The notes beneath the pieces were generated by a model, which was not told the origin of the DNA, did no database searches, and worked only from the letters and a program-made list of their open reading frames with translations. Position numbers and translations under genes: made by a program. Shown in pieces: positions 1,150 through 4,193 of a stretch of DNA of 64,000 nucleotides. This DNA is from Escherichia phage vB_EcoM_LMP25: sequence record MK482688.1; one strand, given 5' to 3'. Position 1 is the stretch's first letter. The number at the start of each line of letters is the position of its first letter.

Positions 1150-1161
1150 AATATCTTAAGA

Positions 1162-1190
1162 GCCTCCTTAATTGGGGGCTTTTTAATTTT
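1162..1190 (+). terminator. rho-independent terminator
   Basis: GCCTCC-ttaatt-GGGGGC stem-loop (one G-U pair) followed by TTTTTAATTTTT. Confidence 0.5.
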
Positions 1191-1199
1191 TATAAAATT

Positions 1200-2732
1200 T
1201 TATCGGTTGTCCCAACCTCTGGGTCACCATCATATGTGAACAAAATATCTACCCTTCTTAACAACCTTCTTAAGCTTACTCTCTATATATAGTTATATAG
1301 TACTATATAGTATCTTAGTATCTATCTAGTGGTCTTAATAGCCCTCTGTATAACCCTTCTAACAAGCCCTCTAACAAGCCTTCTTAACAACCTATACAAT
1401 CACCTTAACCACCTCTCTATACCCTCTTAGAAGCTCCTATACACCTCTTAATCTCTAGGTTAGCTATGACACTCTCTATAGGTGTTCACTAGGTATTACT
1501 AAGCCTCTATATAGACTGTTTTAACAAACTTAACAGGAATATCTTCACAGACCTTATCTCACAAGGTCTAACACGGTACTAACAAGGTATCTTATAAGCC
1601 TGTTATTACCTGTATTTTAGAAAGGCTGTATAGGTAATTATTCAGAATCTTAAAATTTTTATAAAATAGGACTATCAAGTCATTTTTTAGGGTCTTTGAA
1701 GGAACTGAAAAATATCTGTAGAAGATGTATATCTGCTTGGTAGCCCTTAACAACTCCCTTACAAGTACTTTGCAAAATTTTAAATATCATTAACAATTCC
1801 TTAACAACTCTCTCAAGTTCTTAACATCTCTTCAGAGGTCTTAACAGATTCTTAACAGAACTAACAAGGTTGTAACAAGTTCTTAACAGTTGATACATAG
1901 GCTTTACAGAATCTTAACAGATGACTAACAAGAGCTAACAAGTTAATTTTTAAGAGTTATTTTGTTAAGATAATTAACAAGTTTCTAACAAGTGTTTAAT
2001 CTTTTTAACAAGCTATTAACATGGTCACTACTCTTTTCTTATCGTTCCCTTTCCCTCTTAGTGATTCTCTAAACATACCTCTTAAAAGCTCTCTATAGCT
2101 CTTTATAAGCTCTTTTAAGCCTCTTCCTAGTAATTACACCCCAACTGTACAGATACCTCTTTATAAGGCTTTACAGGGGCTTTAAAGGCTATGTCAAAGG
2201 TTCTTACAAGGCTTTTACGTTGTCTTAACAGAGATTTAACAAGGGGCTAACAAGTTGCTAACAAGCATAACTATGTAGGGATTGTTAAGAAATTGTTAAG
2301 AAAATGTTAAGGGGGCTAGCATTTACGTAACTTTTAAGCAACTTCAAAGTAACTTTATAGCCCCTATAACATACTTTTAAGACACTAACAAGCCCTTTTT
2401 AGATATTCACAAGATAGCTAACGAGATAATAAAGCTTATAACCTTATAAGATTCTTTTAAGCCTCTATAAAGCCCTGTAAAGAGCTTTTTAAGGTTGGTT
2501 AATGCAATCCCTTAAGTTAGGTTGATAAGGCTGTTATAGAGCTTTATAGAGCATTTAAATGGGCCATCCCCTTTCTGGGGTTATTGGCTTTTATTTAAGT
2601 TGATTTGATAAAAGGTTATAGAGTAGACTATAGAGTTATTGCTTTTTAAGGTATGAGATAGATTCTATCGAATTAGTGGGATAGATTCTAGGAAGGAAAG
2701 GGAAAGGGTTGTATAGAGGCTATTACATAGAC
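1200..2732. repeat. ORF-free, G-depleted (on + strand) region dense in degenerate short words (CTTAACAAG, CTCTATA, CTTTTAAG) in both orientations
   Basis: No ORF of 60 aa or more on either strand over about 1.5 kb between convergent terminators; words counted by eye. Confidence 0.6.
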
Positions 2733-2787
2733 GTAAAAAAGCCCCTATGAGAAGGAGCTTTTCAGGTATCTGGGGCTATTTAGCCCC
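2733..2787 (-). terminator. tandem stem-loops ending the - strand early array
   Basis: On - strand GCTCCT-tctcat-AGGGGC followed by TTTTTT (plus 2735-2758), and GGGGCTAAATAGCCCC at 2772-2787. Confidence 0.45.
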
Positions 2788-2797
2788 GTTGCGTCGA

Positions 2798-3046: not shown

Positions 3047-3112
3047 AATTTAGATTCTCCAGTTTAGGACTTTACTTAGTGGGGGGGAGGTCATCCCCCG
3101 TTGATTAGTAAT
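3047..3112 (-). promoter_or_regulatory. F1 intergenic cassette (TAAATT -10-like, GC stem-loop, conserved leader with GGAG)
   Basis: About 66 bp conserved block, one of 7 F1 copies; read on - strand. Confidence 0.5.
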
Positions 3113-3376: not shown

Positions 3377-3442
3377 CTTGATAACTCCAGTTTAGGATTT
3401 TATTTAGTGGGGAAGGTCATTCCCTCCCCGTTGATTGACAAT
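3377..3442 (-). promoter_or_regulatory. F1 intergenic cassette
   Basis: ctgTAAATTgtcaatcaacGGGGAGGGaatgaCCTTCCCCactaaataaagtcctaaactGGAGattcaaaATG on - strand. Confidence 0.5.
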
Positions 3443-3973: not shown

Positions 3974-4045
3974 TTTAGAATCTCCAGTTTAGGACTTTAT
4001 TTAGTGGGGAGGTTATTGCCTTCCCGTTGATTAGTAATTTACTTG
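3974..4045 (-). promoter_or_regulatory. F1 intergenic cassette (variant stem)
   Basis: Conserved block with variant stem GGGAGG..CCTTCCC; followed by an extra 150 bp AT-rich spacer to 4193. Confidence 0.45.
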
Positions 4046-4193
4046 TTTTGATAGTTGATTGCAAGTAATTTTTTGAGCTTATCTATAAAGAATCTTTTAA
4101 GTGAATCCCTTTTAGATAACCCCCTCGAACAAAGTTACCAATGTCAATGGGTATTGTCAACACTTTTTTAAAAGTTTTTTTGTAAGTTATTGA

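What the first reader, a model, noticed from the sequence alone, without database searches (positions are those of the whole stretch)
1200..2732. 1.5 kb ORF-free, strand-asymmetric region packed with short degenerate repeats
Between convergent terminators lies about 1.5 kb with no ORF of 60 aa or more, very few G on the + strand, and dozens of degenerate words (CTTAACAAG, CTAACAAG, CTCTATA, CTTTTAAG). Some recur in inverted orientation near 2280-2310 (TGTTAAG x3) and 2538-2725 (TATAGAG). Such density in a compact phage genome suggests a cis-acting element: replication origin, packaging site or terminal-repeat boundary, protein-binding array or noncoding RNA locus.
Basis: seen in the sequence. 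Interest (0 to 1): 0.7.

Follow-up and report, generated by a model that had tools for sequence, protein, structure and literature searches.

The report
Felix O1-type phage genome end region
The gene-free, repeat-packed 1.5 kb is where this Felix O1-like phage's linear chromosome begins and ends: a 578-bp terminal repeat plus two non-coding flanks, filled with conserved, evenly spaced short words that look like docking sites for a still unidentified protein.

Summary
Window 1150-2797 is the longest ORF-free stretch in the 64 kb (1648 bp; next longest 367). It lies between two convergent terminators and is far more repetitive than shuffles. The window is a Felixounavirus, identical to Escherichia phage LMP34.

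Window 1739-2316 (578 bp) is the genome's direct terminal repeat (DTR), present once in this assembly. Three related records carry exact DTRs at both ends with base-identical boundaries (CTGCTT|GGTAGCCC and AAGGGGGC|TAGCAT). The run-off-sequenced 608-bp DTR of UAB_Phi87 is the same segment, within 2 and 8 nt.

The remaining 553 and 421 bp are non-coding subterminal flanks. The repeats are yTAACArG units (36 copies against about 2.4 expected). They are helically phased, and their cores are better conserved than their spacers. Their orientation flips next to the right DTR boundary.

The same layout and word recur in Erwinia phage phiEa21-4, which is barely alignable. The DTR boundaries I predicted there match the ends of about ten records.

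The most likely role is a cis-acting platform for packaging and end formation; that step is inferred. The DTR is already known for the genus. The array appears undescribed, and its binding protein is unknown, since no small terminase has been recognised in this group.

The parts
1158..1183 (+). Rho-independent terminator that ends the rightward gene cluster
   Evidence: Pattern scan. The fold is -15.2 kcal/mol and is followed by a T-run. It is conserved in the relatives whose aligned segment reaches it.
1186..1738 (.). Left subterminal non-coding flank (553 bp). In the virion it sits just inside the right-end DTR copy.
   Evidence: No conserved ORF. 77% matched to Mooglevirus, the 56th percentile of genome tiles. 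G is only 12.3%.
1185..1198 (.). AT-rich near-palindromic box AATTTTTATAAAAT, copy 1. Copy 2 is at 1654-1667.
   Evidence: Two exact copies. Copy 2 (1654-1667) is invariant in all 12 aligned genomes of three genera; copy 1 is nearly so in the sequences that reach it. Function unknown.
1220..1230 (.). Invariant 11-mer TGGGTCACCAT at the outer edge of the left flank
   Evidence: Invariant in all 12 aligned genomes. Function unknown.
1281..1511 (+). Cluster of CTCTATA / TATATAG words in the left flank (CTCTATA at 1281, 1415, 1474, 1505)
   Evidence: CTCTATA is about 160-fold enriched. Coordinates.
1726..1738 (+). TGTATATCTGCTT, the invariant sequence just outside the left DTR boundary; a candidate left cleavage-recognition element
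   Evidence: Invariant in 12 genomes of three genera. Also conserved in phiEa21-4 (Kolesnikvirus), at the position where that group's records start or end.
1739..2316 (.). Direct terminal repeat (578 bp), present as one copy in this assembly
   Evidence: Homologous to the 581-bp PhageTerm DTR of Pr103Blw and the 618-bp DTR of UAB_69. Exact DTRs with identical boundaries occur in Pr103Blw, ZX4221 and CRP22. The run-off-sequenced 608-bp DTR of UAB_Phi87 is the same segment, within 2 and 8 nt. About 32 of 254 records hold two copies.
1748..2021 (+). Main array of 16 yTAACArG units in + orientation, spaced mostly 11, 20 or 31 nt apart
   Evidence: Positions and spacings. Phasing test. Cores are more conserved than spacers.
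2226..2263 (+). Four TAACA units at exactly 11-nt spacing
2263..2278 (.). Invariant AAGCATAACTATGTAG between the direct and inverted units
   Evidence: Invariant in 12 genomes.
2282..2311 (-). Three inverted units (TGTTAAG) at 11-nt spacing next to the right DTR boundary. The GGGGGC|TAGC cut lies 5 nt further on.
   Evidence: Inverted units also abut the right DTR boundary in phiEa21-4, where several TGTTA copies fill the right half of its DTR.
2317..2737 (.). Right subterminal non-coding flank (421 bp). In the virion it sits just inside the left-end DTR copy.
   Evidence: No conserved ORF. 80% matched to Mooglevirus, the 74th percentile. G-rich on the + strand.
2535..2718 (+). Five TATAGAG words, the reverse complement of the CTCTATA words found further left
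   Evidence: All TATAGAG copies lie right of 2535, and all CTCTATA copies lie left of 2470.
2562..2596 (+). Conserved two-tier hairpin followed by a T-rich run. It may be an internal + strand terminator or a DNA structural element.
   Evidence: Pattern scan. Two allelic versions (GCCA..TGGC and GCCC..GGGC) fold the same way in 12 genomes.
2735..2762 (-). Rho-independent terminator that ends the leftward gene cluster
   Evidence: Fold of -16.7 kcal/mol with a U-run. Annotated as a terminator in Barry and Moogle. The stem varies with compensating changes.

Best explanation
The interval is the terminal (concatemer-junction) region of a Felix O1-like myovirus.

**Shown**
- Window 1739-2316 is the direct terminal repeat. 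In virions it is present at both chromosome ends. Here it is collapsed to one copy because the assembly is circularly permuted.
- The ends are formed at CTGCTT|GGTAGCCC and AAGGGGGC|TAGCAT, give or take a few nucleotides.
- 1186-1738 and 2317-2737 are non-coding subterminal DNA. A terminator on each side shields them from the two gene clusters that are transcribed toward them.
- The short words are selectively maintained, helically phased units. yTAACArG fills the DTR and part of the left flank, and flips orientation next to the right boundary. CTCTATA/TATAGAG sits in the flanks.

**Inferred**
- The units are binding sites for a protein that loads cooperatively on one face of the helix and builds a large nucleoprotein complex over the junction.
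- This complex most likely recruits and positions the packaging nuclease, so that the two boundary cuts are made about 578 bp apart.
- Because a concatemer junction holds a single repeat copy, the repeat then has to be duplicated, as in T7-type phages.
- The binding protein is unknown, since no small terminase has been recognised in this phage group.

**My confidence by step**
- About 0.9 that this is the DTR plus subterminal flanks.
- About 0.7 that the units are protein-binding sites.
- About 0.4-0.5 that their job is packaging and end formation rather than another end-associated function.
For: **Identity**
- The window is 100% identical to Felixounavirus LMP34.

**Termini**
- DTRs annotated in Pr103Blw (PhageTerm) and UAB_69 map to 1739-2316 and 1737-2318.
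- Three records carry exact DTRs of 581, 591 and 579 bp with identical boundary sequences.
- At least six sampled records start exactly at the position matching 2316, and one starts at 1740.
- UAB_Phi87's ends were determined by Bal31 digestion plus run-off sequencing. Its published 608-bp DTR sequence is this same segment.

**Constraint**
- The region is 79% matched to a sister-genus phage, against a median of 75% for genome tiles.
- TAACA cores score 0.946 for conservation, against 0.846 for the rest of the region. None of 5000 permutations reached that value.
- Indels are whole 11-12-nt units.

**Phasing**
- Spacings cluster at 11, 20, 31 and 42 nt. The mean deviation from multiples of 10.5 is 1.10 nt, against 2.47 at random, with 0 of 20,000 draws as good.

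**Depth of conservation**
- phiEa21-4 (Kolesnikvirus) shares only about 140 alignable nucleotides, yet it has the same gene-free junction.
- It has the same TTAACA word (14 on +, 7 on - inside its DTR) and the same boundary motifs.
- The DTR I predicted from those motifs (439 bp; query positions 434-872) coincides with the ends of about ten two-copy records, at 432-435 and 871-873.

**Mechanism background**
- For T7-type phages, concatemers hold one repeat copy and the second is synthesised (PMC10438801).
- Packaging specificity maps to the genome termini (PMC3276506).
- No TerS was identified in Felix O1 (PMC3185647).
- No TerS-like signature lies next to TerL in Moogle.
Against: - No read data exist for this particular genome, so its own termini are inferred by homology (about 90% identity to Pr103Blw).
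- Nothing here shows that any protein binds the units, or which one. The packaging role is an analogy.
- Long-range periodicity is weak. The phasing is local, in runs of 3-5 units.
- The neat inverted CCCTTAACA word at both DTR ends is not conserved at the phiEa21-4 left end. A simple 'same site in mirror image at both cuts' model is therefore not supported.
- The run-off-sequenced ends and the NGS-derived ends differ by 2 and 8 nt.
Confidence: 0.6

Rival explanations
1. The phased units are iterons of a replication origin. A phage or host initiator would bind them, and the nearby AT-rich boxes (1185-1198, 1654-1667) or the TATA-rich stretch at 1281-1330 would act as the unwinding element.
For: Directly repeated, phased, conserved short units next to AT-rich boxes. 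The region is non-coding and conserved across genera.
Against: - There are no DnaA boxes or IHF consensus sites in the region.
- The unit has a 7-8 nt core on an 11-nt period. That is shorter than the classical 17-22-bp iterons (my own knowledge).
- No initiator gene is adjacent. The flanking genes are small hypotheticals that end in terminators.
- The array is tied precisely to the DTR boundaries and flips orientation next to the right one, which an origin does not explain.
Confidence: 0.12
2. The arrays form an end-protection or DNA-entry control complex, a kind of phage telomere. A virion-borne or early protein would coat the terminal 600 bp. This would shield the ends from host exonucleases or pace genome ejection, comparable to the repeat-rich injection-stop region in the T5 terminal repeat.
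For: - The units fill the terminal repeat itself, so they are the first and last DNA in the virion.
- They are conserved across the subfamily.
- A felixounavirus (Bas63) is reported to lack a RecBCD inhibitor (bioRxiv 10.1101/2024.10.10.617714).
- There are no Chi sites anywhere in the window.
Against: No candidate protein is known, and there is no direct evidence. The units extend about 500 bp beyond the DTR into the left flank (1259-1580), which is internal in the virion. This function could also coexist with a packaging role.
Confidence: 0.15
3. The region encodes one or more non-coding RNAs or acts as a transcriptional control zone. The TTAACA units resemble the sigma-70 -35 hexamer and could act as promoters or decoys.
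For: TTAACA matches TTGACA at 5 of 6 positions. A conserved hairpin plus T-run at 2562-2596 on the + strand could end a short transcript.
Against: - Promoter-like sites are not enriched (8 found, 6.9 +/- 2.4 in shuffles).
- No Rfam family reaches a meaningful score (best E = 0.12, far below gathering scores).
- The region lies between convergent terminators.
- Conservation peaks on 5-nt cores at an 11-nt period, which is a DNA-site pattern rather than an RNA-structure pattern.
Confidence: 0.05
4. The repeats have no function of their own. They are by-products of replication slippage and recombination in a gene-poor end region that tolerates junk.
For: Units are gained and lost, and small palindromic inserts come and go, showing that the region is plastic.
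Against: - The region is as conserved as typical coding DNA between genera.
- Cores are significantly more conserved than spacers.
- The same word and layout persist in Kolesnikvirus although the surrounding sequence has diverged beyond alignment.
Confidence: 0.05

Closest known systems
Direct terminal repeats of Felix O1-like phages (UAB_Phi87 608 bp by Bal31 and run-off sequencing; Pr103Blw 581 bp by PhageTerm; Felix O1 'short terminal repeats')
   Same: Homologous sequence at the same genomic position, with the same boundary motifs. This is the same element.
   Different: Those papers report only the length and sequence of the repeat. They do not describe the phased TAACA arrays, the subterminal flanks or the conserved boundary motifs. 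I found no paper in the searchable library that does.
T7/T3 concatemer junction: a short exact terminal repeat flanked by arrays of short repeated heptamers (SRL/SRR of Dunn and Studier 1983; recalled from my own knowledge, not retrieved here)
   Same: A short exact DTR, and non-coding flanks packed with short repeated words. The concatemer junction holds a single repeat copy that has to be duplicated. Packaging specificity resides near the termini.
   Different: An unrelated phage lineage (myovirus, no phage RNA polymerase) and a different word. The DTR is about 3.6 times longer. Here the units fill the repeat itself and flip orientation next to one boundary. The function of the T7 arrays is itself unclear (my own knowledge).
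Small-terminase recognition sites: SPP1 pacL/pacR boxes and lambda cosB R sites (own knowledge)
   Same: Multiple short, phased sites next to the cleavage position. They are thought to wrap DNA around an oligomeric recognition protein.
   Different: Those systems have a few sites over about 100-200 bp and an identified TerS. Here there are about 36 sites over 1.3 kb, and no TerS is recognised.
Arrays of 11-bp direct repeats bound head-to-tail by small DNA-binding proteins, for example plasmid R1 parC/ParR and pho boxes/PhoB (own knowledge)
   Same: A conserved core of about 7 nt plus a variable spacer of about 4 nt on an 11-bp period. This implies cooperative binding along one face of the helix.
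   Different: The biology differs (partition, transcription), and no homologous protein has been identified here. The resemblance is one of geometry only.
Repeat-rich non-coding 'injection stop' region in the T5 terminal repeat (own knowledge)
   Same: Dense direct and inverted repeats in non-coding DNA inside a terminal repeat.
   Different: The T5 repeat is about 10 kb and carries genes. There is no evidence for two-step DNA entry in Felix O1-like phages.

Membership tests
Short exact direct terminal repeat (DTR) of Felixounavirus / Ounavirinae | Sequence homology to a DTR whose ends were determined experimentally or from reads | tested here: met
   90% identity over the full 581-bp DTR of Pr103Blw and 88% over the UAB_69 DTR. 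The published UAB_Phi87 DTR sequence is the same segment.
Short exact direct terminal repeat (DTR) of Felixounavirus / Ounavirinae | Conserved boundary sequences at both ends of the repeat | tested here: met
   CTGCTT|GGTAGCCC and AAGGGGGC|TAGCAT are identical in the window, Pr103Blw, ZX4221 and CRP22. Both boundary motifs are recognisable in all 12 aligned genomes, which span three genera: the motif just outside the left cut is invariant, and the right-hand motif varies at a few positions.
Short exact direct terminal repeat (DTR) of Felixounavirus / Ounavirinae | The same sequence is present at both ends of this phage's own virion DNA (fixed read starts, twofold coverage) | not testable with these tools
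   The window and the LMP34 record hold a single copy. No reads are available.
Short exact direct terminal repeat (DTR) of Felixounavirus / Ounavirinae | Large terminase belongs to the clade associated with short DTRs | not tested
   TerL lies outside this 64-kb window. The literature places Felix O1-type TerL in a DTR clade (PMC4837284).
Terminase recognition (pac/cos-type) site | Specific binding by a small terminase or other recognition subunit | not testable with these tools
   No TerS is known for the group. There is no TerS or DNA-binding signature in the two genes upstream of TerL in Moogle.
Terminase recognition (pac/cos-type) site | Multiple phased sites next to the cleavage positions | tested here: met
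   Four direct units at 2226-2263 and three inverted units at 2282-2311 lie within 90 nt of the right cut. The first direct unit is 9 nt inside the left cut.
Iteron-type replication origin | Directly repeated initiator sites next to an AT-rich unwinding element | tested here: inconclusive
   Repeats and AT-rich boxes exist. However, the units are short, and they track the DTR boundaries.
Iteron-type replication origin | DnaA boxes or IHF sites, or an adjacent initiator gene | tested here: not met
   There are no DnaA-box or IHF consensus matches in 1100-2850. The neighbouring genes are small hypotheticals behind terminators.
Known non-coding RNA family | A match to an Rfam covariance model at gathering score | tested here: not met
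   The best hits score 20-26 bits against gathering scores of 47-100, with E >= 0.12.

The most novel reading that the evidence does not exclude
Ounavirinae have no recognisable small terminase. They may instead use an unidentified, subfamily-conserved DNA-binding protein that polymerises on about 36 phased yTAACArG sites across the concatemer junction. This filament-like or wrapped complex, rather than a compact pac/cos site, would measure out and position the two cuts that define the terminal repeat. It might also protect the ends after injection. That would be a new type of genome-end recognition system in tailed phages.
Probability: 0.25. Interest if true: 0.6.

Novelty: new member of a known kind. 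Interest (0 to 1): 0.4.

Why it matters
**Practical value**
- Many deposited Felix O1-like genomes, including the one this window matches, are arbitrarily permuted. They lack the terminal repeat annotation or carry spurious small ORFs here.
- The two boundary motifs given here allow the true ends to be placed by sequence alone in four genera. They predicted the ends in Kolesnikvirus correctly.

**Biological value**
- Felix O1-type phages are widely used for Salmonella and E. coli typing, biocontrol and therapy. How they recognise and cut their DNA is unknown, and no small terminase has been found.
- A conserved array of about 36 phased sites is a concrete handle for finding the recognition protein. 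It could also help in designing packaging-competent vectors or engineered genomes.

Tried and rejected
1. **Hidden genes.** ORFs inside the region are at most 53 aa. They differ in place and length among 12 genomes, so I rejected this.
2. **Known RNA families and promoters.** I found nothing above chance.
3. **Host-factor sites.** Chi, DnaA boxes and IHF consensus sites are all absent from the region.
4. **Mirror-image cleavage sites.** CCCTTAACA occurs only 3 times in 64 kb, and two copies sit inverted at the two DTR ends. This looked promising, but the left-end copy is not conserved in phiEa21-4. I therefore do not rely on it.
5. **Mirror symmetry of the flank words.** CTCTATA lies to the left and TATAGAG to the right in this genus. 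In phiEa21-4 the flank word is different (TTAGAAG, GAGAAG), and it has the same orientation on both sides. This is therefore not a general rule.
6. **Candidate small terminase.** TerL is outside the window. The two genes upstream of TerL in Moogle give only DUF7217 and families of unknown function.
7. **IMG/VR scan for four TAACA at 11-nt spacing.**
   - The dense degenerate arrays were all Ounavirinae.
   - The other hits were perfect simple tandem repeats or short 4-9-unit arrays in unrelated contigs.
   - The pattern itself selects for such hits, so this was uninformative.
8. **Literature.** I found no description of the array, no transcriptome and no functional data on the felixounavirus end region. 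The PhageMaP study of Bas63 reports gene essentiality but nothing on the terminal repeat.
9. **Long-range Fourier periodicity.** It is weak; only local phasing is significant.
Full report
**1.

Window 1150-2797 contains no ORF of 60 aa or more. At 1648 bp it is by far the longest such stretch in the 64 kb; the next longest is 367 bp. The longest ORFs inside are 53, 38 and 33 aa. None is conserved in position or length in 11 related genomes.

The stretch is bracketed by a + strand terminator at 1158-1183 and a - strand terminator at 2735-2762. Both fold well, at -15.2 and -16.7 kcal/mol, and each is followed by a U-run.

Base composition is asymmetric in patches. G is 12.3% in 1186-1738 and 14.4% in 1739-2316, but 19.5% in 2317-2737, against 18.3% elsewhere. 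Only 4 G occur in 1350-1449.

The region is highly repetitive:
- TAACA occurs 30 times on + and 6 times on -, where about 2.4 are expected.
- CTAACAAG occurs 10 times against 0.05 expected, and CTCTATA 6 times against 0.04.
- Identical 8-mer pairs number 316, against 59 +/- 11 in dinucleotide shuffles and a mean of 61 in coding tiles.

**2. What genome this is**

The window is 100% identical to Escherichia phage vB_EcoM_LMP34. It is 85-96% identical to many Felix O1-like myoviruses of the genus Felixounavirus. The region itself is found in 256 phage records, and 205 of them cover at least 80% of it. Curated records in Felixounavirus, Suspvirus, Mooglevirus and Kolesnikvirus annotate no genes here. 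At most they mark repeat regions or terminators.

**3. The central 578 bp is the direct terminal repeat**

Two relatives annotate a DTR inside the homologous stretch. Pr103Blw has 581 bp from PhageTerm (PMC8303462), and UAB_69 has 618 bp. They map to window 1739-2316 and 1737-2318.

Three independently sequenced records carry exact repeats at both ends: Pr103Blw (581 bp), ZX4221 (591 bp) and CRP22 (579 bp). Their boundary sequences are identical to the window's:
- left: ...ATATCTGCTT|GGTAGCCCTTAACA...
- right...AATGTTAAGGGGGC|TAGCATTTACG...

In a spread sample of 60 of the 254 matching records, at least five begin exactly at the position matching window 2316. Two more appear in another sample, and one begins at 1740. 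About 32 records hold two copies.

The link to experiment is direct. The ends of UAB_Phi87 were mapped by Bal31 digestion and run-off sequencing, giving a 608-bp DTR (PMC4837284). The sequence printed in its Figure S1 is the reverse complement of this same segment. It starts 2 nt outside the left boundary and stops 8 nt short of the right boundary. In that genome the distance between the two boundary motifs is 614 bp, and 614 + 2 - 8 = 608.

The window holds one copy, as expected for a permuted assembly with the repeat collapsed. In window orientation the virion chromosome therefore starts at 1739. It runs rightward through the whole genome and ends at 2316 after a second copy of 1739-2316. 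The 553 bp at 1186-1738 and the 421 bp at 2317-2737 are subterminal non-coding DNA, and both adjacent gene clusters are transcribed toward the ends.

**4. The short words behave like binding sites**

Aligning all 36 TAACA occurrences gives the unit y-T-A-A-C-A-(A/G)-(G). Upstream positions are T/C-rich, and 3-4 variable positions follow.

Spacings between successive + strand units are dominated by 11 nt (11 of 29), then 20, 31 and 42. For the 24 spacings of 45 nt or less, the mean distance from a multiple of 10.5 is 1.10 nt. Random spacings give 2.47, and none of 20,000 draws did as well. Phasing is local, in runs of 3-5 units. Fourier peaks over the whole region are weak.

In a 12-genome alignment spanning three genera, the TAACA cores score 0.946 for conservation, against 0.846 for the rest of the region. 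None of 5000 permutations reached that value. Indels are mostly whole 11-12-nt units.

Against Citrobacter phage Moogle, a different genus, the region is 79% matched. The median 578-bp tile of the window is 75%, which puts the three sub-regions at the 56th to 74th percentile. This non-coding DNA is therefore as constrained as typical coding DNA.

The units are arranged with respect to the repeat:
- 16 direct units lie at 1748-2021.
- Four lie at exactly 11-nt spacing at 2226-2263.
- An invariant 16-mer follows at 2263-2278.
- Three inverted units at 2282-2311 sit next to the right cut.

The sequence just outside the left cut, TGTATATCTGCTT (1726-1738), is invariant.

**5. The architecture is conserved across the subfamily, and it made a correct prediction**

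Erwinia phage phiEa21-4 (Kolesnikvirus) has a gene-free gap of about 1.2 kb at the syntenic convergent junction. It shares only about 140 alignable nucleotides with felixounaviruses. Even so, it shows the following:
- the same TTAACA word, 14 on + and 7 on - inside the predicted repeat, with spacings of 11, 20 and 22 nt;
- the left motif TGTATATCTGCTT|;
- a right motif AATGTAAAAGTGGC|TAAC...CGTAAAA.

From these motifs I predicted a 439-bp DTR at query positions 434-872. Records with two-copy repeats start or end at 432-435 (Hafnia phage SPARTY, Erwinia phage MM7, six vEam phages) and at 871-873 (Roscha1, Hena2, Prophecy).

The outer flank word differs in that genus: TTAGAAG occurs nine times instead of TATAGAG. 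The flank words therefore evolve, while TTAACA and the boundary motifs persist.

**6. How it most likely works**

The termini, the conservation and the phasing are shown. Everything else in this section is inferred.

Phased, core-conserved units on an 11-nt period are the geometry used by proteins that bind head-to-tail along one face of the helix. The array is locked to the two cut sites. The simplest reading is a cooperative nucleoprotein complex over the concatemer junction that recruits and positions the packaging nuclease.

In T7-type phages each junction holds one repeat copy and the second copy is synthesised (PMC10438801). Packaging specificity lies near the termini (PMC3276506). The same logic probably applies here.

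The recognition protein is unknown. The Felix O1 genome paper found only a large terminase (PMC3185647). The two genes upstream of TerL in Moogle show only DUF7217 and families of unknown function.

My confidence is about 0.9 for the DTR plus flanks, about 0.7 for protein-binding units, and about 0.4-0.5 for a packaging or end-formation role.

**7. Rivals**

- **Iteron origin.** This is not excluded, but it has no specific support. There are no DnaA or IHF sites, no adjacent initiator gene, and the units are short and track the repeat boundaries.
- **End protection or entry control.** This is plausible and could coexist with packaging. The units fill the terminal DNA, and a felixounavirus is reported to lack a RecBCD inhibitor. 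However, the units also extend 500 bp into DNA that is internal in the virion.
- **ncRNA or promoter array.** This is unsupported. A conserved hairpin plus T-run at 2562-2596 deserves an RNA-end test.
- **Neutral slippage products.** This is contradicted by the conservation pattern.

**8. Comparison with what is known, and novelty**

The DTR of this genus is already known, and this is the same element. What I could not find described is:
- the dense phased TAACA array;
- the conserved boundary motifs;
- the subterminal flank organisation;
- their conservation into Kolesnikvirus.

In kind, it resembles the T7 concatemer junction with its flanking short-repeat arrays, and multi-site terminase recognition regions. 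It differs in lineage, word, scale (about 36 sites over 1.3 kb) and the absence of a known recognition subunit.

I file it as a new member of a known kind, with moderate interest. The element is ordinary in category, but it is a clean, testable handle on an unknown DNA-recognition step in a widely used phage group.

Noticed in passing
window 1-64000: GATC is completely absent from all 64 kb, on both strands. Dinucleotide-preserving shuffles give 186 +/- 13 matches. This is extreme avoidance of the Dam / MboI-type site. Chi (GCTGGTGG) is also absent.
   Followed up: partly
related loci: L001 2876-2893, L004 2804-2821, L011 1387-1404, L012 1940-1957, L020 305-322, L022 240-257 (homologous to window ~1942, ~1965, ~2060, ~2566): A palindromic insert of about 23 nt (GGGATTGGTAACAATACCAAT) sits at different positions, and in both orientations, inside the terminal region of different felixounaviruses. 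It is absent from this window. It looks like a small mobile hairpin element confined to the end region. Three other palindromic inserts of 24-32 nt behave in the same way.
   Followed up: partly
window 2562-2596: A conserved two-tier hairpin is followed by a T-rich run on the + strand, inside the right flank. Two allelic versions (GCCA..TGGC and GCCC..GGGC) fold identically across 12 genomes. It may be an internal terminator or a DNA structural element.
   Followed up: partly
window 1185-1198 and 1654-1667: There are two exact copies of the AT-rich near-palindrome AATTTTTATAAAAT. One is right after the left terminator, and the other is about 70 nt before the left DTR boundary. The copy at 1654-1667 is invariant in three genera and the other nearly so, and AT-rich counterparts occupy the same two positions in phiEa21-4. 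Their function is unknown.
   Followed up: no
window 3047-3112, 3377-3442, 3974-4050: A conserved intergenic cassette of about 65 nt is repeated between the small leftward genes next to the region. On the - strand it consists of a G/C-rich hairpin, then TAAAGTCCTAAACTGGAG and the start codon (seen directly). It is probably a reiterated terminator/leader module of the early genes.
   Followed up: no
GenBank GU169904.1 (Staphylococcus phage SA1) 135884-136463: A 147-kb Staphylococcus phage record contains the complete Felix O1-type terminal repeat at 89% identity (H104). This is most likely a chimeric or contaminated assembly rather than biology.
   Followed up: no
window 1-64000: No tRNA genes were detected in the window, and TerL is absent from it. 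The tRNA cluster and the terminase gene of this phage type therefore lie in the roughly 21 kb of the genome that the window does not cover.
   Followed up: no
MK482690.1 (LMP34), OL656108.1 (UAB_69), JN225449.1 (UAB_Phi87), OR863361.1 (SeKF_63): Several records annotate short 'hypothetical protein' CDSs of 25-50 aa inside the terminal repeat and its flanks. These ORFs are not conserved among relatives, so they are probably annotation artefacts.
   Followed up: partly
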